The notes under the pieces: generated by a model
Seen by the model: the letters and a program-made list of their open reading frames with translations, nothing else
What the model was told of the DNA's origin: nothing
Databases searched by the model: none
Part shown: piece after piece, positions 83-31,058 of the stretch
Position numbering within the stretch: the stretch's first letter is position 1
Layout: every line of letters starts with the position of its first letter
Assembly: GCA_000165425.1 (NCBI GenBank)
Contig: CT867995.1
Location: forward strand, 271,173-302,230
Length of the DNA stretch: 31,058 nucleotides
Origin: Paramecium tetraurelia
Lineage: Eukaryota
Direction: 5' to 3'
Program-made: the position numbers and the translations under genes

Positions 83-1106
83 ATGTTGTTTAAATTTAGT
101 TAGCTTGTAAAGCAACCAGAGATTTATGATGCTTAGCTATTATCTAAAATGTAAGCTATTTCTAACTATATTAGATGCCCATTATAATTAAAACACAAAT
201 ATTTAATATTAGAATAGAAAATAAAGTAGGCAAAAGAATTGGAGCATGAAATCTATAAGATGAAAGATGAAGACCAAGGTTGGAAAAAATTAAAGATCAG
301 TTTAGAATTCACTCCCTAGAACACTCTGAATAGTAAATTCATAATCAGTATGAAATTAGAATGAAATTTTAGTAAGGCATGCTTTGGCATGGCATAATTA
401 TTTTAAAAGAGTAACAGAATTTAAGGATTCAAATATCTATCATTATGATTTGATTGATCCTCCTTTGCAATATTTAGGCACTAAACAATGTGATAAATTA
501 AAGTTAGAAATTAATAAATTGGAATTTGATAAAGTCTATGTGTCACCATTGTTAAGGCATATTATTTGAAAGTAATTATAGAGCAATACAAACAACTCAA
601 CTATTGTTTTGTAACCATCCATAGAAGGAGAAGATTTAATTTATCCTATGTCCAGATATTTGCGAGAAAATAAGCACCATAAATTCAGTTTATAAATGGG
701 GCACCCTTACATAACTATTAAAAGATGTATCCTTTATATAAATTATTATTAGAATGGAAATCCAATTCAATTTGATTTTAGTTAGATGCCAGATAATCTT
801 GAGTTTTGGCAATTCAATTTATTACAAAAAAGTTACGACTTAAGAGATTGCTAAGCAAATAAGGAAGATTTCGAAAGATTCATAGTTGATGAGTTTGTCA
901 GAAAAGGATCAAGCTTTTAATTAGAACACGGCAGGGGTGTAATCAGTAGAGTGTAAGGATTTGTAAACAAAATAAAAGAAGATCAAACTTAAAGTAAAAT
1001 TGGTATCGTGACACATTTTCAAATTATAAAATCAATATTACAATGTAGCAGATAAAGAATAGATTTTAAATTTGGAAATGGAGCTGTGTTTGGACTTAAT
1101 TTGTGA
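83..1106 (+). CDS. Histidine phosphatase (phosphoglycerate mutase-like) family protein, 3 micro-introns
   Basis: Ciliate code, ATG 83 to TGA 1104-1106. Removing introns 348-372 (25 nt), 557-581 (25 nt, GC-AG) and 727-752 (26 nt) restores the family motifs FIIIRHALAWHN, DPPL..LG.KQ, VYVSPLLRAIQT and IGIVTHF. Confidence 0.88.
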
Positions 1107-3743: not shown

Positions 3744-4274
3744 TCATTCATTCTTTGGAACTTCCTCTTACAAGGCCTTATTGCTTTCATAGGCTTTTTC
3801 AAATTCAGTTTTAAATCTTTCGACTTCTTCTGGTGAAATAAATCGAACACACAATTGCCAAACTTTTGGTTATTCATCAGAAGCGTCATAGCATGTCCAT
3901 ATCCATGACTTGTCGGCTGTCTTCAATTAGGATAATTTGCAAAAGCCCTCTTATGCTGTGATGAAATGATTAGCAATTAATTTTCCAGTCTTATCTTATC
4001 TCATAAGTAATCTGATTTTATTTGTTTATTTATTTTTAAGGAATTTCATGTCTCCAACACCTCTTTCCTAAGAGTAAATCATATATATTACCTTCCATTA
4101 AGCATCTGCAAATCTATAAATTTTAGCTCGGAATTTAGCTACTTCTTCATCATTTTCTTCTCCGGTTTAAACAGGTAGTTAAGGAAGAGTTGCCTATCCT
4201 TCTCCTACAAACACTTCTTATTCTGGATTGTAGTCTTCTCCTACTTATTCATCATCATCACCGTGAGGGTCCAT
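3744..4274 (-). CDS. RANBP1: Ran-binding protein 1 (RanBD), 168 aa
   Basis: MDPHGDDDEQ...[59 protein letters not shown]...DKSWIWTCYDASDE...CVRF...FKTEFEKA. One 24-nt GT-AG intron (4068-4091) splits the WKERG motif. Confidence 0.96.
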
Positions 4275-4524
4275 TGATTAAATTAAAAAATTATTTAAAT
4301 ATTTAAATTTATATTGGTGGGTGATGTCCTTTAATTATGATTTCTATACAATGGAATCTTTCGGAATTTAAGAATCCGTATTAATCAAATTTCTATAATA
4401 CATATTTATTCATGAATCACATAGTCTATGTAAATTTGACTATTTTTATTTTTATGTGCTACATTAATTATAAAAACAACAAAGAATTAAAAATCAATAT
4501 AATAAAAAGAAAAACAAAATTCCA

Positions 4525-5185
4525 TCAAGTACAACAATTCTGTCGAGGTCTTTATTACAGGACATCTTGTGAGACTTTTCTGGCTTATAAATTCTGAGCA
4601 AGTTAATCAATCAACTCATTTATTCCCTCTCCTGTTTTCGTTGATATTTCACAATACAACAGGTTTTTAGCCTTACAAAATTATTGAACCTTTTCTTATG
4701 CAATACATCTGAGTTCTACTCCATCGTGAATCAGGTCTAATTTATTTCCTACTATTATAATCACAATTCTATCGTCAGCATTATTGTAAATATCTTCATT
4801 TATTATTTATGACTACCTTTCAACCAGAATTGTAAATTTTCATAAGAATATAAATCAGTCAGATCATAAAACAATAATGCCCCTTGTGATTAATGAAAAT
4901 GGCTAAATAGTGTAATTAATACTTTGAAGTTAAAGACTTATATTTCTCAGAACCAGCTAAATCAAAAATATAATACCTGTGTCCCAAATTTTTAGATTGA
5001 TTATTAATTCCTTAAAAACAACCTACTTTGTTGCATACTCAACTCCAATTGTTGATTAGGGTTATCTTGGAGCAACATTCTTAGTTATTCGAATAAAAAA
5101 GCTTGTCTTCCCAACCTTGTTATCTCCTACTAAAATAACTTCGTTTGATATCTGAGTTACCTTTATACGATTAAATTTAATTCAT
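4525..5185 (-). CDS. Rab-family small GTPase (divergent), 191 aa
   Basis: Four introns (5139-5160, 4957-4976, 4903-4922, 4794-4816). Motifs YKVILVGDNKVGKT, STIGVEY, IWDTAGSEKY, GNKLD, EISTK, and a C-terminal CCT* prenylation signal. Confidence 0.93.
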
Positions 5186-5706
5186 AATAAAAATATCAAT
5201 ATAAAAATTCAATAATTTTATTTTCAAATCATCATTGGCAATCACAAAGTAATAATGTTTGATCGATCTTGTTTAATAACTCTAGTATCATTTTATCAAT
5301 GAAATTTAAATCTATCATTAATTTTAACATAAAATTTATAATTATTACTTAAATATTATTTATGTATCTTTAAGGCATTTTATACTTGGCTAAACTTAGG
5401 CTTTGAAGACTTAGTTTTCGGTTTCGTTTACTGATTGCAAATTTCAAAATTAGTGCTTTCAATTTTCAAGATTACTTCCTTATTATACTTACATTTGATA
5501 TAAGAAAGTTATTATAGTCTCTATTTAATGACAACAAACATGTTTCTGTATATATATGAGTGCTATTTTTATTTAGAAGTTCTCCTAAAATGAAGAAGGA
5601 TTTATCCTTGAAGTTTATACACTCAATTCTGATTGTAAGGCTAGTATAAAACAATATTATTTAATTAAGAAAATAATAATTTATAATATTAAATAAAAAA
5701 TGTAAA

Positions 5707-8700
5707 ATGGCTTAAACAACAAGATAAGTATAAAATAAACAATACTAAGCTTCGATTAGTAATTTTTGTGAGCTTATAAGATTAAATAATAATTAAATAT
5801 TAATTGGCCGAAAATAGGCTAAAGAAATGATATCATGTGTAAGCATATTATAAAGAGAGATATCAAGTAAACCTTAATATTTAAATGAAGAGTAAAATGC
5901 TACAATAACAATATGGTAGCTAAAATAATACATCAAAGAAACTAGAACAAGGAAGATAAGATAAGTCTAAGAATACCAGATAAAATAAAGGAAAAATATT
6001 AATATAGAAAAAGCAGTGTGGCAATATAATCCAACAATTTAAAAAAGCCAAGACAATACTGGCTATTAAAATTGCATTGGTATAATTCTTATCTTTTAAA
6101 GTTATTAAACAATTTAGAATTGAACATACAAGAAAAAGTTGTGAAAAATTATGATGCAAAAATTTAAAAGAACTCGGAAGATTCTAGTTATTACCACAAC
6201 AAAGGTATAAGAAATTATGTAGAATTGTTAGCTGTTAATTTAGAAAAAATGAATAGATTAGAAGAAGCTTTGGAAAATTATGATTTAGCAATTTTAAAAA
6301 ACCCAAAACATTCTGAATTTTATAATTGTAAAGGTAAAATTAATATTCAAAATTTCTAAGCTAATATTTTAGAAAAAATGAACAGATTAGAAGAAGTTTT
6401 ATAAAATTTTGATTTTGCAATATAGAATAACCCAGAAGAATCGAAGTACTACTTCAACAAAGGTTTAAATAAAATGTTACATTTCTAAAGGCTTTATGTT
6501 AGATAAAATGAACAAATTAAGAAGAGGGCTTTGTTATATTTATGATTTTTGCAATATAGAAAAACCCCAGAAAGATTATAGGTAATTACCTCCTAAAAAT
6601 GTATAATTATATATGATGAATATATTAGCTTATACTTTATATAAAATGAATAGATTTGAAGAATCTTTAAAAAATAGTGATTTAGCAATATTAAAAAACC
6701 CAGAAGATTCTAGGAATTACAATAATAAAGGTACATTTTAAGTTGTAGAATTAATAAGCTACTGCTTTATTATAAATGAACAGATTAGAAGAAGCTTTGG
6801 AAAACTTTGATTCAGCAATTTAGAAAAAAAACCCAGAAGATTCAAGATATTACTTTAATAAAGGTAAATCTAAAGTTGTAGAATTAATAAGCTACTGCTT
6901 TATTATAAATGAACAGATTAGAAGATGCTTTGGAAAACTTTGATTCAGCAATTTAGAAAAAAAACCCAGAAGATTCAGGATATTACTTTAATAAAGGTAT
7001 ATTTAAAGTTGTAGAATTAATAAGCTGCTACTTTATTATAAATGAACAGACTAGAAGAAGCTTTAGAAAATTATGATTTAGCAATATAGACAAACCCAGA
7101 AGTATCGAAGTACTACTTCAGCAAAGGTATAAATAAATCTAATATTTCTCAGCCTTGACTTTAGATTAAATGAACAAATTAGAAGAAGCTTTGTACAATT
7201 ATGATTCAGCAATTTAGAAAAACCCAGAAAATTCTAGGTATTACCACAACAAAGGTTTAATTTAATATATAGAATTATTAGCTGTTATTTTAGGAAAAAT
7301 GAACAGATTAATAGAGGCTTTGGAAAATTATGATTTAGCAATTTTGAAGAACCCACAAGAATTTAGGCATTATAATAATAAAGGTATAATTAACATTGTA
7401 TAATATTTTAGCTATTATTTTAGATAAGATGAGCAGATTAGATGAAGCTTTGTAAATTTATAATTATGCAATAAAGAAAAATCCACAAGATTGGATGCAT
7501 TACCATAACAAAGGTTTATCTAGATATCTATAATAAATTAGCGATTACTTTAACAAAATTGAACAGATTAGTAGAAGCATTAGAAAATTTTGATTTAGCA
7601 ACTTAGCTGAATCTATCAAATTCTAGCTATAGTAATGGGAAGGGTATAATTAAATATTTATAATTTGTTAGCCGATATTTTATATAAAATGAACTAATTA
7701 GAAAAAGCTTTAGAATAATATGATTCCGAAATTTTGAAAAACCCAGAAAATGCTTTATATTTTAATGGCAAAGGTATAAAAAAATATAAATAATTTAGCT
7801 ACTATTTTAATTTAAATGAATAGATTAGAAGAAGCTTTGGAAAATTTTGATTTAGCTATTTAGAAAAATCCAGAAGATTAAAGGTATTACCACAATAAAG
7901 GTATATTTAAATTTGTAGAATTTATAAGCTGGCGCTTTATTAAAAATGAACAGATTAGAAGAAGCTTTGGTAAATTATGATTCTGCTATTCAGAAAAACC
8001 CAGAAGGTTCAATTCATTACTCCAATAAAGGTATATTATTTATGTATAATATGTTAGCTTATACTTTACTTATGATGAATAGATTAGAAGAAGCTTTAAA
8101 TAATTTTGATTTAGCAATATAAAAAAACCCAGAAGATTCAATTAATTACTTTAATAAAGGTATATTTAAAATTGTAGTAATTAATAAGCTTTCACTTTAT
8201 TAAAAATGAACAGATTAGAAGAAGCTTTGGAAAATTATGATTTAGCAATATAGAAAAACCCAGAATTTGCTGAATATTATAATGGGAAAGGTATATAAAA
8301 TATATATTATTTAGCTAACTCTTTACAAAACTTAAACAGATTGGAGGAAGCTTTGGAATATTATGATTCAGCAATTTAGAAAAATCCAGAAGATTATAGG
8401 TATTACCATAACAAAGGTATACTTATAAATGTAGAATTTATTAGCTTTTAATTTAGAAAAAATGAATAGAGTAGAAGAAGCTTTGGAAAATTATGATTTA
8501 GCAATTTTTAAAAACCCACAACATTCTGAATCTTATAATTGTAAAGGTAAAATTAATATTTAGGAATTCTAAGCTAATATTTTATAAACAATGAACAGAT
8601 TAGAAGATGCTATATAAAATTATGATTTTGCAATATAGAATAGCCCAGAAGAATCGAAACACTACTACAACAAAGGTATAAAAAATGTAATATTCCTCAG

Positions 8701-9293
8701 CCATGACTTTAGATAAAATGAACAAATTCGAAGAAGCTTTGTAATATTATAATACAGCAATTCAGAAAGACCCTGCAAATTCTGAGTATTATAATGGAAA
8801 AGGTAAAGTTTAATATGAATAATTTTTTAAGCTAATACTTTAACAAATATGAAGAACTTCGAAGAAAGTTTGAAAAATTTTGATATAGCAATATAGAATA
8901 ACCCAGAAGATTCAAAGGTCTTCTTCAACAAAGGTTTAAGTTAATTCATATAATTTCTAAGCTTTTGCACTACACAAAATAAAAAGATTTGAAGAAGCTT
9001 TGTTAAATTATGATACAGCAATTTACAAAAACTCTGAAAATTCTGAATACTTTTATGGAAAAGGTATGCTTAAAATGTATACTTTAAGCGATTGCTTTAG
9101 CTGAAATGAACAAATTAGAAGAGGCTTTTGCATATATTGATTAAGCGATTTAGAAAAACCCTGAAATTTCTCACTATTACGATGCCAAAAGTATATTTAA
9201 GTTTTTATATTTTTAGCATAAATTTTACTTTAAATGAATAGAATTTAAGAGGTCTTTGAAACATAACGGATTGATTTTTTGAGATTTTTATGA
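5707..9293 (+). CDS. TPR-array protein (~24 TPRs), one TPR-length exon per unit; possibly damaged or containing sequence errors
   Basis: ATG 5707 and an N-terminal non-repeat region, then exons with consensus AxxLxKMNRLEEALENYDxAIQKNPEDSxYYxNK (34 aa), TGA 9291-9293. The exon at 6102-6204 is 103 nt and the unit at 6491-6600 is frameshifted. Confidence 0.85.
6205..9216 (+). repeat. Tandem array of ~130-nt intron+exon units (24 introns, 23 internal exons)
   Basis: Counted directly: 20 exons of exactly 102 nt, 2 of 105 nt (6759-6863, 6892-6996) and 1 garbled (110 nt). Introns are 24-29 nt GT-AG, nearly all in AAAG|GT...AG|C context (phase 1). Confidence 0.95.
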
Positions 9294-9699
9294 ATTTCAA
9301 ATATTATCATTTTTAACATTATTTTTTATTTCTAATGTAAAATGTCTTGTATATTAAATAAATAGGATGAAGTTTGGAAATATTATCATTTATATATTCA
9401 GCAATATTACCTCTAAACTTAATTTATCTATTGCGCTTAAGAATGGTGTCAACAACATTATCGTGTAATTTGTCAATCAAAATGGTATAATTACAAAACA
9501 AGTTAAGGTTATGCTAACATATAGTTGCTGCTTATTAGCTTTTGAACAAAAACCATTATTATAAGAGATTGTATTGTTTTTAAATATGTCTTTAGTAATA
9601 ATACATTGTCTAAAATAGAATAAATCATTAAAGCCATTATTTACTTATAATGGTTTATTTAGTAAGATAGCCATTATTTTGATAACCAGATAAAATTTT

Positions 9700-10609: not shown

Positions 10610-13600
10610 TAATAATACTATATTGTTTCTTGGTTTGAAAATTAGACGAGCTTAAGGGGAGGTGGATGTGGAAATACAAAGATTCCTAAAGTTTAAATAG
10701 GAAAATTCAATAATTCACTACAACTTTATCAGAATTCACAACGACAACCTCAGAAAAATCTTTCACTTTTTAAGATAAACTCCAACAGGTTGAAATCCTC
10801 TCTGCATTTTCTTGGTTTTACAACAATAAGGAATATTCTCTTAGATAATATGTAATGATGTTTGAATAAATTCAAAATTTTATCACCTAGTTGAAGTATT
10901 GTTAAAATCTCTGATAATATAAATTAAATTATCAGGATTCTTATTCCATTAACTGCTTGACATTTGTGATGATCTCTTTAGAGTAATCCTTTGAAATCAA
11001 TTACAAAATGAGGAGGGATAGATATACGTAGGAAGTTCTCAAATATCATTCATTTGAAATTATTACAGAAATTAAATTCAAAACTAGCATTGAATCAATC
11101 AACATTCATAAAACTAGAGTTGAATTTGAATTCTAGCTTATTAAATTAGGTTAATTTATCATAGAAACTAATTCAGAATGAGAAAAAGAATTATTAATTT
11201 CAATACTATATAGTGCTGCAAGTTCAATATCTCTGAATTAAACCTAGCAGTGAATTAATCGATTCCCCACTAAACACCAGAAAATAATCACCTTTCAATT
11301 TCTATGAAAATAAATTTAGCATCCATTACAAAAATATGAAGTTTATTATTTTTTTGAGAAACTAAAATGTTCAATTATCAATTAATAGAAACTAGGATAT
11401 TCAGTTCAAAACTATTAACCCATTGCCGCAAGGTTATAATTAATATATTAAATTATCTTAAGATTGGATGATACATTTTGTTGAATTAAATTCATAACTG
11501 AGTTAATGTTGTATCGACTAATAATCAAGAAAGAAGAACTAAAACCAACACGGTCAAAAATTTATGCAATTTGGAATCACTTAATAACTACTAATTAAAT
11601 GATTTAACTGCCTCATGAAAAAACCTCTGGCAAACTCTAAATTTTGCAAAAAAGAATTCTTAGCATTTGTAATTTAAATAATTAACAATTTAAAGAGTAT
11701 AGATGAATTTTATTAGTTCTCAAAATCTGTTATCATTATAAAGAATAATACTAATAAGTTTAAGAACTCATATAAATTTTAATCAAATTTAAGTGGTTAT
11801 TAAAATAAAAGAAGTCGAATTTTTCATTAACAATAAAATATAAATAAACAATAAATGAGATAATAGTACATACATTTAATAAAGATATTATAGAAATATC
11901 ATCGGATAGGAAAATTGACTTAACAAAATGTTTCAAGAATATTTTTGAATCAAAATAACTCTTCTTAATTATGCAATTTAGGTCAATTGTTAGATGACCA
12001 AAATCTAGCATCAATACAAACATTACAAGTAGTTTCTTAAAAGGCCTAGCTATTCTAATAATAGGATCTTGCGTTAAATCGAGAAATTATTACTGATACA
12101 ACTTATTCATACTTTTTAGAAGAAGTTGTATAAAGAAATTGGTTTAGTGAAGGAAATAAACTCTTAGATATTTTTTCAGACTCCTCTTATAAAGTTTGAG
12201 AAGCAGCTGCATTTAATTTAATTAAAATACAATCTATAGTGTAAGAGGTTGCCATTAAGGATTTTTTGCAAACTTTATTGCTATGAATATGAATGATTGA
12301 AAGATATCTNNNNNNNNNNNNNNNNNNNNNNNNNNNNNNNNNNNNNNNNNNNNNNNNNNNNNNNNNNNNNNNNNNNNNNNNNNNNNNNNNNNNNNNNNNN
12401 NNNNNNNNNNNNNNNNNNNNNNNNNNNNNNNNNNNNNNNNNNNNNNNNNNNNNNNNNNNAGTGGATCAAGGGTACCACGAAACATAGTCAATAAGTATTT
12501 TGAATTTCTTAAATAATTAAAAGGTCAAAATTTCCCCCTTAATGAGTTTAAATTAATTTGAACAAATTTAGAAGATTGCATTAATACAATCATCATTCAA
12601 AATATAGCCAAGATATATTATTTTAGATGTTGAAAAGATAATTTAGAAGTTCCAAACTAAGAAAAGAGGTTCTTCTTTTATGGAGCTTATAAAAGTTTTC
12701 TTTAGTCATTAACAATGAGAATATTAATCATTTAATGGGCGCTCAATTTACCAAAATTGTCATCTACTTTTTCAGAATCGAATTTTTTGAGACATACTCT
12801 CAAATAAAATGCCTTTAATTAAGATACAAAGCTCATAAGCAGAATTAATTAATGAACAATATCAAAATTAATCAAAACTTAATATAGGTTTCAGATTTAT
12901 AATCAGATTAGACTTAATTAAATTAGAAGTCGGTTGAAACAAAAACCTATTAAGTCAAAGGTTCTAGAAAACTTTCTTTCATTAATTGAAGAATTAGGTA
13001 GCTAAAGTTTCTTTAAAAATTATTCGAATTTTCACCCAATTGACTTTTGGATGAGAATAGAATACTCTCAAGGAAAGTCTTTACTATTTAGAGTGAGGTA
13101 AATTTTATAGTATCAGCGTTCAAACAAAATTAATTTACGGCTTACGATCTTTATGAGACTTTTTCACAATTTTACCATATGAAGCAACTTTAAAATGGAA
13201 AGAATTAAGAAAAACTTTTTATTATGGAACTTCTTTAAATGATTTACATGATTAACCACTATATTTGGCTCAAGATATGACTACATATTAACTTGCCTAA
13301 GTTGATTACTGTTCTAACTTACACAAGCAACATAAGAAGGGGAAAATAAATATTTTTGGGAAGATTAATATTTTGATGAGAATTAAACTAAATGTATTTT
13401 GAATCTATTTATAAAAGTGTTTTAAGATAATTATTTTGGGTTATTAACAAACAGCAGATTCAAATTTGGATCAATTTAATATTTCACTTGAGCATTATTA
13501 AGGTTAAATATAATTATTAAAGCCGAAATTGAAGTAAATTTTGGATATGAAGCAGAAATTAATTTTAATTGTTTAATAATCGAAGCAATAAATTGAGTTT

Positions 13601-30478: not shown

Positions 30479-30622
30479 TAGACCTCTTAAACCTATTCAT
30501 TAAGGATGGAAAATCAAGCCCTAATTTTACTCAAGGCCAGATGAATATTAGCTTGAATTTATGGAACAAGATATGCAGGAGTTAATACTAGAATTTGGAT
30601 TGGAGGAATAACTTTTGGGGTT

Positions 30623-30810
30623 GGTCAAGACTGCCTAGAACTGTCTCTATAGGAAGCAGTAATATGGTCGGTCAAGACTGCCTAGAACTGTCTCTATAGG
30701 AAGCAGTAATATGGTCGGTCAAGACTGCCTAGAACTGTCTCTATAGGAAGCAGTAATATGGTCGGTCAAGACTGCCTAGAACTGTCTCTATAGGAAGCAG
30801 TAATATGGTC
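30623..30810. repeat. Perfect tandem minisatellite, 4 x 47 bp
   Basis: Unit GGTCAAGACTGCCTAGAACTGTCTCTATAGGAAGCAGTAATATGGTC starts at 30623, 30670, 30717 and 30764. Copies are identical, with no spacers; 21/47 bases are G+C. Confidence 0.98.
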
Positions 30811-31058
30811 GGCCCTGAGGAAGACTAACCTGATACGTACTAGTGTGGGTAGGGCTGAGTCAATGAGGTGTTAAAAACGCGAAGTTTTGAAAGATAGATT
30901 AGAGGGGGTGTCAGTTTTAGAATTTTTAAGTTAATTATTTACTTATATATATAAGTATAAATTTGATAATCACTCAATGAGAAATTTTAATTCCTTTTGT
31001 CACTTTTTTATTTGATTAACTTAAACCTTAAATTTACCCTATAATTTTGAGAGTTCAC

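What the first reader, a model, noticed from the sequence alone, without database searches (positions are those of the whole stretch)
6205..9216. Modular one-exon-per-repeat TPR gene whose splice junctions cut through the variable binding helix: candidate diversifying recognition system
Seen: 23 symmetric (phase 1-1) exons, 20 of exactly 102 nt (34 codons), each separated by a 24-29-nt intron at the same position between TPR residues 7 (K) and 8 (A). Helix B is well conserved (MNRLEEALENYD.AI..NP), while variation concentrates on both sides of the junction: AVNLE, ANILE, AYTLY, ATALL, ALTLD, ADILY, AGALL, ANSLQ, AFALH after it and SEFYNCK, SKYYFNK, WMHYHNK, ALYFNGK, SIHYSNK before it. Established: helix A positions 2, 5, 6, 9, 12 and 13 line the TPR ligand groove, and repeat-per-exon architectures are known for Tetrahymena 90-bp-exon LRR genes and Ectocarpus ROCO-LRR/NB-ARC-TPR genes, proposed as immune-like receptors. 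Inference: any exon skip, duplication or unequal crossover keeps the frame and joins half-helices from different units, creating chimeric binding helices.
Basis: partly seen in the sequence, partly recalled or inferred. Interest (0 to 1): 0.88.

Follow-up and report, generated by a model that had tools for sequence, protein, structure and literature searches.

The report
Paramecium one-exon-per-repeat TPR gene array
A Paramecium tetraurelia gene encodes a long TPR protein in which every repeat is its own 102-base exon split from the next by a tiny intron; this looks like the product of repeated DNA duplication, not a system for generating receptor diversity.

Summary
Window 6205-9216 (+) has 24 GT..AG introns of 24-29 nt, all in phase 1. 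They bound 23 exons: 20 of 102 nt, 2 of 105, 1 of 110. Each exon encodes TPR residues 8-34 plus residues 1-7 of the next repeat.

Only the spliced reading is open. At the window's TGA density, 684 stop-free codons have P about 7e-7, while the unspliced frames carry 19-22 stops.

The DNA is Paramecium tetraurelia macronuclear. The public model (GSPATT00029132001, 212 aa) retains two 27-nt introns and stops in the third unit, so the roughly 870-930-aa gene is not modelled.

Exons and introns were duplicated together (E5/E6 98%; E1-E2 vs E18-E19 90-95%), so the array grew at the DNA level.

The diversifying-receptor reading is not supported:
- Variability follows the generic TPR pattern.
- Overall dN/dS is about 0.5.
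- No effector domain was found.
- No canonical non-adjacent join was seen in RNA reads.
- Exon skipping is unreported in this species.

One hint remains: pN/pS is 2.5 in the four youngest unit pairs (P=0.06). The closest analogue is the Tetrahymena LRR 90-bp exon arrays.

The parts
5827..6079 (+). Candidate first exon. ATG at 5827 in the frame that reads a degenerate TPR-like unit ending in phase 1 at 6079. The public model instead starts at ATG 5885 in another frame.
   Evidence: Frame translation. nhmmer weak unit hit at 6005-6073, E=0.1. RNA depth rises from 0.2-0.3 at 5700-5823 to about 2.4 at 5824-5947. P0001 sequence.
6080..6117 (+). Candidate 38-nt phase-1 intron. The public model uses a 22-nt phase-0 intron at 6080-6101. 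Which one is used is not resolved.
   Evidence: Read directly from the sequence. Both alternatives keep an open frame. P0001.
6118..6204 (+). 87-nt exon: a TPR unit lacking its first 5 codons.
   Evidence: nhmmer hit at 6117-6204, E=9e-10, profile positions 43-130. Translation.
6205..9216 (+). Core array: 24 phase-1 GT..AG introns (24-29 nt) bounding 23 exons (20 of 102 nt, 2 of 105, 1 of 110). Each exon encodes TPR residues 8-34 plus 1-7 of the next repeat.
   Evidence: Pfam TPR_1/TPR_2 above cut-off on the read-through stretch.
6491..6600 (+). Decayed third unit (110 nt; about 9 inserted and 1 deleted base relative to E8). It breaks the frame if both flanking introns are removed.
   Evidence: Best identity to any other unit is 78%.
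6601..6628 (+). 28-nt GTATAA..TTAG interval. Retaining it restores the frame (240-nt exon; ORF of 920-934 aa). Removing it gives a stop after 210-224 aa.
6731..6996 (+). Youngest tandem duplicate: two 133-nt modules (28-nt intron plus 105-nt exon). Exons are 98% identical and the flanking introns 89-93%.
6185..6465 (+). Copy A of a block of about 2.2 units, shared with 8397-8678. Overall identity is 252 of 282 columns. E1/E18 are 95%, intron 2 is 85%, E2/E19 are 90%. Identity falls to about 55% beyond 6465.
8397..8678 (+). Copy B of the duplicated or converted block (E18, the intron, E19).
9217..9293 (+). Last exon: a partial unit, with stop TGA at 9291-9293. RNA depth is 0 from 9296 on.

Best explanation
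This is a macronuclear Paramecium tetraurelia gene that encodes almost nothing but a solenoid of about 25 TPR_1-type repeats. The public model covers only its 5' fragment (GSPATT00029132001).

How the array arose:
- It was built, and is still being remodelled, in the germline DNA by tandem duplication, unequal recombination or gene conversion of a module of about 130 bp. Each module is one tiny intron plus one 102-nt exon.
- The intron sits between TPR residues 7 and 8 in every unit because the founder unit carried it there.
- Phase 1-1 symmetry is the condition under which duplicated modules survive. It is not a device for shuffling.

What the product probably does: it is most likely a static protein-binding scaffold whose exposed helix positions (9, 12, 2, 34, 22, 26, 5) differ from unit to unit, as in any TPR array.

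The third unit has decayed. The locus is therefore one of the following:
- Read through unit 3 as a 46-residue linker (inferred, about 35%).
- Truncated or split there, with the 20 downstream units translated separately or only recently disabled (about 40%).
- Spliced with unit 3 skipped, by removing 166 nt (unlikely in this species).

Shown: the anatomy, the open frame only when spliced, co-duplication of introns and exons, TPR identity, the species, and low-level RNA consistent with the + strand.

Inferred: the duplication mechanism, the scaffold function, and how unit 3 is handled.
For: Anatomy and open frame.

TPR identity:
- Pfam TPR_1 31.8 bits (cut-off 27.8) and TPR_2 27.1 bits (cut-off 27) on window 6132-6464.
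- Consensus columns among 22 units: A8 22/22, L11 22/22, A20 19/22, Y or F at position 24 20/22, A27 21/22, P32 20/22.
- The paralogue P0002, whose units are spliced K|A, gives TPR_1 at 6.4e-28 with stretches spanning profile positions 3-33. Its best natural solved relatives are the OGT TPR domain (7e-30) and SPINDLY.

Species: P0001 is 100% identical over all 111 residues of the read-through and is named Paramecium tetraurelia macronuclear.

DNA-level growth:
- For each unit's best partner, the flanking introns are 57-93% identical, against 64 +/- 5% for shuffled introns. E5/E6 are 98%, E1/E18 95%, E2/E19 90%, E4/E15 85%.
- The shared block extends beyond exon limits: it starts about 20 nt before the intron 1 donor at 6205.

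Constraint: mean pS 0.416 exceeds mean pN 0.250 over 190 unit pairs, and pN exceeds pS in only 14 pairs. Overall dN/dS is about 0.5.

Generic variability pattern: Spearman 0.73 with control TPR units.

RNA:
- Nearly all reads laid from two poly(A) runs share one orientation. The exception is one bin at depth 0.25.
- Depth is about 1-6 from 5824 to 9295 and 0 after 9296.
- Loose-end consensuses show K|A junctions without an intron in at least 7 different paralogue contexts.

Family: P. octaurelia relatives carry the same unit. Model P0030 runs from '...KKG' into what I read (not tested) as the shifted frame of a TPR exon, which would put an unspliced intron at the same site.

Literature:
- P. 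tetraurelia TPR-motif genes are described with 'TPR coding exons' and very high IES density (PMC6771405 passages).
- IES copies are multiplied by expansion or recombination of TPR repeats (PMC3464196 passage).
Against: - No read-level joint was listed for any of the 24 short introns of this locus. Reads are 58 nt, locus-specific depth is about 1-5, and half the reads were only partly laid. Splicing here therefore rests on the open frame, the splice signals and the paralogues.
- Canonical splicing of all 24 introns gives a premature stop, so the gene may not make the long protein at all.
- RNA depth nearly vanishes over 6320-6567 in both raw runs (0 and 0.15; 0 and 1.27). This is unexplained.
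- The four youngest unit pairs show 29.5 non-synonymous against 2.5 synonymous differences (pN/pS 2.5, binomial P=0.061).
- Position 9 is more variable here than in the controls (entropy 3.27 vs 2.13 bits).
- The control set was selected with a profile built from these units and is biased towards them.
- The function of the protein is untested.
Confidence: 0.72

Rival explanations
1. One reading: a programmed diversifying recognition system. Exon skipping or alternative joining at the RNA level, or somatic unequal crossover, recombines half helices to generate many binding surfaces from one locus.
For: - 22 of 23 exons are phase 1-1 and a multiple of 3 in length, so any such event keeps the frame.
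- Variable residues flank the junction at positions 9, 12, 2 and 34.
- There is an unexplained RNA dip over E2-E3.
- Precedents proposed as receptors: Ectocarpus NB-ARC-TPR and ROCO-LRR (PMC3341825) and Tetrahymena LRR 90-bp exon arrays (PMC6564038).
Against: - No canonical non-adjacent join was listed in 4 runs. The only listed joint (7350 to 8218) has AC..TA ends, comes from one contig at depth 3.66, and lies between repeat units.
- Exon skipping is stated to be unreported in P. tetraurelia, where 18-33-nt introns are read by intron definition (PMC8997360 passage). A skip would need a 'intron' of at least 155 nt.
- No effector domain was found.
- The variability pattern is generic for TPR.
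- dN/dS at the proposed groove positions is 0.53.
Confidence: 0.04
2. An evolutionary arms race with no programmed mechanism. The family is a fast-evolving recognition repertoire, like the Tetrahymena LRR or Ectocarpus TPR genes. Germline unit turnover plus positive selection on exposed helix A residues creates new specificities.
For: - The youngest pairs show pN/pS 2.5, with 29.5 of 32 differences non-synonymous.
- Recent unit duplication or conversion is evident.
- Many expressed paralogues have different helix A sequences (loose ends).
- Relatives with differing unit counts exist in P. octaurelia.
- Position 9 is hypervariable.
Against: - The excess is not significant (P=0.061) and equally fits relaxed constraint after duplication.
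- Only 5 of the 16 amino-acid differences in E1/E18, E2/E19 and E5/E6 fall on the six 'groove' positions (my count from the translations).
- Older pairs show pN below pS.
- There is no link to any signalling domain.
Confidence: 0.13
3. A decaying locus. The third unit's frameshifts have already inactivated the gene, the transcripts are NMD-targeted noise, and the regular architecture is a fossil.
For: - Canonical splicing gives a stop after 210-224 aa.
- The public model ends in unit 3.
- RNA depth is low, with a hole over E2-E3.
- Young duplicates show an excess of non-synonymous change.
Against: - The 20 exons and 20 introns downstream of unit 3 are all intact: no stop in 684 codons (P about 7e-7 at the window's TGA density), and all have GT..AG.
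- Unit 3 itself is far more diverged than any other unit, so the break is old. A downstream array that was dead for as long should have decayed too.
- RNA reads cover the array to 9295.
Confidence: 0.2

Closest known systems
[quoted passage not shown] 2019, PMC6564038; passages read)
   Same: - Also a ciliate.
- One solenoid repeat per exon of fixed length, with one intron phase throughout, so each junction codon is shared between neighbours.
- Nucleotide-level similarity between units, and evidence of ectopic recombination or unit turnover.
   Different: - LRR rather than TPR; 90 vs 102 nt; phase 2 vs phase 1.
- Introns of about 50-250 nt vs 24-29 nt.
- Documented there in thousands of genes. 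Here it is one gene plus hints from a few paralogues.
- That paper reports that P. tetraurelia LRR genes lack a 90-bp exon peak and have few introns. In the passages read, it does not discuss Paramecium TPR exon structure.
Ectocarpus NB-ARC-TPR genes with repetitive TPR exons (Zambounis et al. 2012, PMC3341825; passages read)
   Same: [quoted passage not shown]
- Inactivated exons lie inside the arrays.
- Exon-wise tests give only weak positive selection for TPR exons (5 of 245 lineages).
   Different: - Exons of 126 nt (a 34-aa TPR plus an 8-aa linker), described there as 'phase 0' exons.
- Fused to an NB-ARC signalling domain.
- Long introns.
- Here the exon boundary lies inside helix A and no NB-ARC or other domain was found.
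The IES-dense TPR-motif gene family of P. tetraurelia (Vitali et al. 2019, PMC6771405, passages; Arnaiz et al. 2012, PMC3464196, passage)
   Same: - Same species.
- Genes made of 'TPR coding exons'.
- Repeat expansion or recombination is noted.
- Function is stated to be unknown.
   Different: - Those papers concern germline IESs, which sit at the 5' end of TPR exons at up to 10 IES/kb.
- The passages I read do not describe the 102-nt exon length, the phase-1 introns or the position between residues 7 and 8.
- Whether this gene carries such IESs cannot be seen in macronuclear DNA.
TPR superhelix of O-GlcNAc transferase / SPINDLY
   Same: Closest natural solved relatives by sequence of the spliced paralogue P0002 (OGT 7e-30, SPINDLY 2e-15). 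The same TPR_1 class, with Asn frequent at position 6 (13 of 22 units here).
   Different: No glycosyltransferase or any other catalytic domain here. The comparison was made with the paralogue, not with this gene's spliced product.

Membership tests
TPR repeat (Pfam TPR_1 / TPR_2) | A 34-residue helix-turn-helix unit scoring above the curated Pfam cut-off. | tested here: met
   On window 6132-6464 read through its introns: TPR_1 31.8 bits (cut-off 27.8) and TPR_2 27.1 bits (cut-off 27). The spliced product could not be handed to the tool because joined sequence is not accepted.
TPR repeat (Pfam TPR_1 / TPR_2) | Consensus small or hydrophobic residues at positions 4, 7, 8, 11, 20, 24, 27 and 32. 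| tested here: met
   Among 22 units: Y4 18/22 (plus F 3), K7 22/22 (canonical TPR has L), A8 22/22, L11 22/22, A20 19/22, Y/F24 20/22, A27 21/22, P32 20/22.
Exon-per-repeat solenoid array (Tetrahymena LRR / Ectocarpus TPR type) | One repeat per exon of constant length. | tested here: met
   20 of 23 exons are 102 nt, 2 are 105 and 1 is 110.
Exon-per-repeat solenoid array (Tetrahymena LRR / Ectocarpus TPR type) | A single intron phase throughout, so that units are interchangeable in frame. | tested here: met
   24 of 24 introns are in phase 1, and 22 of 23 exons are symmetric and a multiple of 3 in length. The decayed 110-nt exon is the exception.
Exon-per-repeat solenoid array (Tetrahymena LRR / Ectocarpus TPR type) | Nucleotide-level evidence that exon plus intron modules were duplicated or recombined. 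| tested here: met
   E5/E6 are 98% identical with flanking introns at 89-93%. The block 6185-6465 matches 8397-8678 in 252 of 282 columns.
Exon-per-repeat solenoid array (Tetrahymena LRR / Ectocarpus TPR type) | A genome-wide family with an exon-length peak. | not testable with these tools
   No genome is held for this window. There are only hints: P0002, P. octaurelia relatives, and paralogue junctions in RNA.
Diversifying or immune-like repeat receptor | The repeat domain is coupled to a signalling or effector domain (NB-ARC, ROC-COR, kinase). | tested here: not met
   Pfam gave no family for the 84-aa N-terminal candidate exon, the 79-aa unit-3 read-through or the 24-aa C-terminal piece. 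The neighbouring Ras-like gene is on the opposite strand and is separate.
Diversifying or immune-like repeat receptor | Positive selection on ligand-facing residues. | tested here: inconclusive
   dN/dS is 0.53 at positions 2, 5, 6, 9, 12 and 13, and about 0.5 overall. The four youngest pairs give pN/pS 2.5, P=0.061. No likelihood site model was available.
Diversifying or immune-like repeat receptor | Non-colinear transcripts or somatic rearrangement of units. | tested here: inconclusive
   No canonical non-adjacent join was listed in 2 raw RNA runs and 2 contig runs. However, reads are 58 nt and depth is about 1-6, and the adjacent-exon joints were not listed either.
IES-dense TPR-motif genes of P. 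tetraurelia | A germline IES near the 5' end of most TPR exons. | not testable with these tools
   This needs micronuclear DNA or DNA from PGM-depleted cells. The gene id was not found in the one supplementary file searched.

The most novel reading that the evidence does not exclude
The Paramecium TPR family could be a substrate for somatic or transcript-level diversification of a binding surface. Each helix A would be interrupted twice within a few codons: by a tiny intron between residues 7 and 8 and, in the germline, by an IES at the exon 5' end (as reported for the family). Variable removal of these elements would yield many scaffold variants from one locus without triggering NMD. Six of the 24 introns here are stop-free multiples of 3, and retaining one would insert 8-9 residues into helix A. 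Unit turnover would add to the variation.
Probability: 0.07. Interest if true: 0.8.

Novelty: new member of a known kind. Interest (0 to 1): 0.36.

Why it matters
If the 102-nt exon / phase-1 intron module is family-wide in Paramecium, two ciliate lineages would have independently built exon-per-repeat arrays for two different solenoid folds: LRR in Tetrahymena and TPR in Paramecium. Here the introns are at the lower size limit of eukaryotic splicing.

That would give a clean system for studying three things:
- How tandem duplication multiplies introns, and in the germline IESs.
- How intron definition copes with 24 near-identical splice sites spaced 130 nt apart.
- How gene predictors fail on such loci. 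The public model of this gene keeps two introns and ends after 212 of roughly 900 residues.

It does not at present bear on immunity-like recognition in ciliates.

Tried and rejected
1. Genome-wide scan for 102-nt exon arrays: no genome is held, so this was dropped.
2. One search spent one capped protein search on window 8210-8782, whose first half is out of frame. It returned nothing and means nothing.
3. RNA holders: no RNA holder was listed on record by the index. The raw RNA runs were added by species label only.
4. Read evidence for the 24 short introns: none was listed as a joint or as letters left out. Because about half of the reads were only partly laid (95 of 178; 170 of 327), this is uninformative. 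It is what 58-nt reads from an mRNA with 102-nt exons would do, but it is also what paralogue reads do.
5. Contigs of run X6 end exactly at the exon ends 6730 and 6863 (depths 8.2 and 7.9), while thinner contigs (depths 2.6 and 3.3) run through the introns. This suggests a spliced/unspliced branch, but X6 is only guessed to be RNA, so I do not count it.
6. Looking up this gene in the supplement of PMC6771405 by its GSPATT id gave 0 occurrences in file 3, which was cut when stored. The other files were not searched.
7. Earlier findings of this scan: nothing by place, words or sequence.
8. Considered and rejected:
   - A 43-residue repeat without introns. Only 6 of 24 intervals are multiples of 3, and the frames carry 19-22 stops.
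   - A gene on the minus strand. The 492-511-aa antisense ORFs are by-products of a repeat under a one-stop code, and nearly all laid RNA reads share one orientation, which I take to be + strand RNA.
   - Assembly error as the cause of the unit-3 indels. This is not excluded, but a few RNA reads at 95% or better lie on 6444-6567 in X22 and no indel was listed there.
9. Pfam was run on 121 of the 295 stop-to-stop ORFs of 70 aa or more (those up to about 15.6 kb, leaving out the ones inside the array), plus 8 long ORFs. Most of the second half of the window was not scanned.
Full report
WHAT IS THERE

The window has the features of ciliate DNA. G+C is 0.22-0.33, and frames stay open only if TAA and TAG are read as sense and TGA as the sole stop. 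Tandem Repeats Finder reports one array at 6131-9165 with period 130, 23.4 copies and 70% matches.

Reading the array unit by unit gives the following:
- There are 24 GT..AG intervals between 6205 and 9216. Their lengths are 24 (1), 25 (3), 26 (2), 27 (5), 28 (11) and 29 nt (2).
- Donors are GTA in 20 and GTT in 4. Acceptors are TAG in 11, AAG in 11 and CAG in 2.
- All 24 sit after the first base of a codon. The exon ends in AAAG in 21 of 24, and the next exon starts with CT in 17 of 24.
- The 23 exons between them measure 102 nt (20), 105 nt (2) and 110 nt (1).
- Mean G+C is 0.16 in the intervals and 0.27 in the exons.

IS IT REAL AND NON-RANDOM?

TGA occurs once per 49 codons over the six frames of the window. 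The three unspliced frames of 6205-9216 carry 19, 22 and 22 stops. With the intervals removed, the frame is open. The 684 codons downstream of the third unit alone have P about 7e-7 of being stop-free by chance.

A DNA profile of the unit finds 27 hits in the window, all on the + strand between 5985 and 9426, and none elsewhere.

TPR IDENTITY AND REGISTER

Pfam TPR_1 (31.8 bits, cut-off 27.8) and TPR_2 (27.1 bits, cut-off 27) match a stretch read through two 27-nt introns. Profile positions 7-34 start one residue before the exon-first alanine.

The consensus columns are kept among 22 units: A8 22/22, L11 22/22, A20 19/22, Y/F24 20/22, A27 21/22, P32 20/22.

The spliced product could not be given to Pfam or a fold tool, because joined sequence is not accepted. 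The paralogue P0002, whose public model is spliced K|A, gives TPR_1 at 6.4e-28 with stretches spanning profile positions 3-33. The read-through model P0001 matches only positions 7-34. Splicing is therefore what restores whole repeats.

ORGANISM AND PUBLIC ANNOTATION

The read-through of 6132-6464 is 100% identical over all 111 residues to a 212-aa NCBI/UniProt protein of Paramecium tetraurelia (macronuclear). Its identifiers are CAK58096.1, A0BHS9 and GSPATT00029132001, and it lies on a 302,230-bp contig.

That model starts at ATG 5885, removes a 22-nt intron (6080-6101), keeps the two 27-nt introns, and stops at TGA 6543-6545 inside the third unit. The long gene is therefore not represented by it.

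An alternative start at ATG 5827, in the frame that reads a degenerate TPR-like unit, followed by a 38-nt phase-1 intron (6080-6117), fits the unit register and the onset of RNA coverage. It is not proven.

The gene ends at TGA 9291-9293 after a partial unit.

Neighbouring genes are a histidine-phosphatase-like gene (about 354-566, +), RanBP1 (3747-4409, -) and a Ras/Rab-like GTPase (4528-5181, -).

The third exon (6491-6600) is 110 nt. Relative to E8 it has about 9 inserted bases and 1 deleted base, and it is the most diverged unit. The outcomes under different splicing choices are as follows:
- If all 24 intervals are removed, the frame breaks and a stop follows after 210-224 aa.
- If the 28-nt interval 6601-6628 is kept, the frame is restored. 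The result is a 240-nt exon and an ORF of 920-934 aa.
- If unit 3 is skipped by removing 6463-6628 (166 nt), the ORF is 874-888 aa.

A 166-nt intron would be far outside the 18-33-nt range quoted for this species (PMC8997360 passage).

The 20 downstream exons and their introns are all intact. This argues that they have been under selection despite an old lesion upstream. I cannot tell whether unit 3 is read through as a linker, whether the locus is now two genes, or whether the product is truncated.

HOW THE ARRAY AROSE

Unit-against-unit identities average 73% for exons and 70% for introns, against 64 +/- 5% for shuffled introns. Some units are much closer:
- E5/E6 are 98% identical, with flanking introns at 89-93%.
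- E1/E18 are 95% and E2/E19 90% identical, with the intron between them at 85%.
- E4/E15 are 85% identical, with flanking introns at 83-86%.

The E1-E2 / E18-E19 similarity is one tract of about 280 nt (6185-6465 vs 8397-8678, 252 of 282 columns). It starts about 20 nt before the intron 1 donor at 6205 and ends at the start of intron 3.

Introns thus travel with exons, and the tract borders do not respect exon limits. This is what DNA-level tandem duplication, unequal crossing-over or gene conversion produces. The constant intron position is inherited from the founder unit. Phase 1-1 symmetry is a survivorship condition.

TEST OF THE DIVERSIFYING READING

(a) Where variation lies. Column entropies among 22 units are highest at positions 9 (3.27 bits), 12 (3.05), 2 (2.77) and 34 (2.53). 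Next come 22 and 26 in helix B (2.28 each), then 5 (2.21) and 10 (2.04). K7, A8 and L11, next to the junction, never vary.

As a control, a profile of these units pulled 322 TPR units from 110 stored proteins. The pool was all stored proteins except the six Paramecium ones, and most were from bacteria or metagenomes. Of these units, 48 were nearly full-length. Their column entropies correlate with those here (Spearman 0.73, P=8e-7). This control is biased towards units resembling the query. Position 9 stands out as more variable here (3.27 vs 2.13 bits).

(b) Selection. Nei-Gojobori counts give dN/dS of about 0.5 overall and 0.53 for positions 2, 5, 6, 9, 12 and 13. Synonymous change is near saturation. 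Over 190 unit pairs, mean pS is 0.416 and mean pN 0.250, and pN exceeds pS in 14 pairs.

The four youngest pairs together show 29.5 non-synonymous and 2.5 synonymous differences (pN/pS 2.5, binomial P=0.061). This is suggestive but not significant, and it is equally expected from relaxed constraint after duplication.

(c) Domains. No Pfam family was found in the N-terminal 84 aa, the unit-3 read-through or the C-terminal 24 aa.

(d) Transcripts. Two raw poly(A) RNA-seq runs of the same species label (58-nt reads) and two contig runs were laid on 5700-9400.
- 178 and 327 reads were laid from the two raw runs. All but one bin at depth 0.25 have the first mate on the minus strand. By the tool's note on stranded libraries, this implies + strand RNA. 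That is an inference, because no control gene was laid.
- Depth is 0.2-0.3 before 5824, about 1-6 across 5824-9295, and 0 from 9296. This matches the proposed gene limits.
- Bins with depth of about 8-20 (6196-6319 and 8180-8427) are dominated by paralogue reads. For example, 9 of 10 reads differ at 6286, and 32 of 33 differ at 8217.
- No joint or deletion was listed for any of the 24 short introns, so splicing at this locus is not shown by reads. No canonical non-adjacent join was listed either. The single joint (7350 to 8218, AC..TA ends, one contig at depth 3.66) looks like a repeat chimera.
- Loose-end consensuses show K|A junctions without an intron in at least 7 distinct paralogue contexts, so relatives are expressed and spliced at this site.
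- Depth nearly vanishes over 6320-6567 (E2-E3) in both raw runs. I cannot explain this.

(e) Literature.
- For P. bursaria, I saw only the method and overview passages of PMC12862383. [quoted passage not shown]

COMPARISON WITH WHAT IS KNOWN

- Tetrahymena LRR genes carry arrays of exactly 90-bp exons, with more than 98% phase-2 introns and unit shuffling by ectopic recombination. The same paper reports that P. tetraurelia LRR genes lack a 90-bp exon peak and have few introns (PMC6564038 passages).
- Ectocarpus NB-ARC-TPR genes have 126-nt TPR exons, inactivated exons inside the arrays, and weak positive selection (PMC3341825 passages).
- IESs present in 3-6 copies are ascribed to expansion or recombination of TPR or WD40 repeats (PMC3464196 passage).

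The exon-per-TPR layout has therefore been drawn before in the IES context. The 102-nt / phase-1 / residue 7|8 regularity was not mentioned in the passages I read. A search for 'Paramecium' with '102-bp exon' found 0 papers, and the searches found no description of it. Papers outside the held library could still describe it.

By sequence, the spliced paralogue is closest to the OGT and SPINDLY TPR domains among natural solved proteins. P. octaurelia relatives carry the same unit. Model P0030 runs from '...KKG' into what I read (not tested) as the shifted frame of a TPR exon, which would betray an intron at the same site.

VERDICT

The best explanation (about 0.72) is an ordinary, if unusually regular, exon-per-repeat TPR scaffold gene. 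It was built by DNA-level duplication of a 130-bp intron-plus-exon module, is poorly annotated, and may be crippled at unit 3.

The diversifying-recognition reading has no positive support beyond the formal frame symmetry and a non-significant excess of replacement changes in young duplicates.

I class it as a new member of a known kind, of moderate interest.

Noticed in passing
window 5885-6545: The public protein model for this locus (212 aa, GSPATT00029132001) retains two stop-free 27-nt introns and ends at a TGA inside the decayed third unit. Roughly 700 residues of open, spliceable TPR array downstream are not part of it.
   Followed up: yes
window 6320-6567: RNA depth drops to 0 and 0.15 (6320-6443) and to 0 and 1.27 (6444-6567) in the two raw RNA runs. 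Flanking locus-specific bins have about 1-6. It could mark two transcription units, NMD, or skipping of E2-E3. This is unexplained.
   Followed up: partly
window 6205-6465 vs 8417-8678: In the young duplicated block, synonymous sites differ much less than the introns. E1 and E2 together show 1 synonymous difference in about 35 sites, while intron 2 differs at 4 of 27 positions and intron 1 at 8 of 28. Tiny introns here seem to diverge faster than silent exon sites, or conversion favours exons.
   Followed up: partly
window 6205-6231, 6334-6360, 7255-7281, 8031-8057, 8291-8314, 8547-8573: Six of the 24 introns are multiples of 3 (five of 27 nt, one of 24 nt) and have no in-frame TGA. Retaining one would insert 8-9 residues into helix A without a premature stop. 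From my recollection of Jaillon et al. 2008 (not read here), such introns are the class counter-selected genome-wide in Paramecium.
   Followed up: partly
window 5469-6944, 6457-7989, 7209-8696 (minus strand): Antisense ORFs of 492-511 aa run through the array under the one-stop code. They are probably by-products of the repeat. Nearly all laid RNA reads share the orientation taken to be + strand RNA.
   Followed up: partly
P0030 and P0088 (P. octaurelia proteins): The public models of relatives contain stretches that look like the shifted reading frame of TPR exons after '...KG'. That would mean unspliced short introns in the annotation, so mis-modelling of this family may be general.
   Followed up: partly
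window 30619-30812: A 47-nt tandem repeat with 4.1 copies and 99% matches, in the G+C-richest part of the window. The unit is not a multiple of 3.
   Followed up: no
window 12310-12459: A run of 150 N (a scaffold gap).
   Followed up: no
window 354-566 (+), 3747-4409 (-), 4528-5181 (-): Neighbouring genes by Pfam are a histidine phosphatase fragment (E=3.8e-5), RanBP1 (1e-33) and a Ras/Rab-like GTPase in two exon pieces (7e-11 and 2e-11). None is linked to the TPR gene by strand or frame.
   Followed up: no
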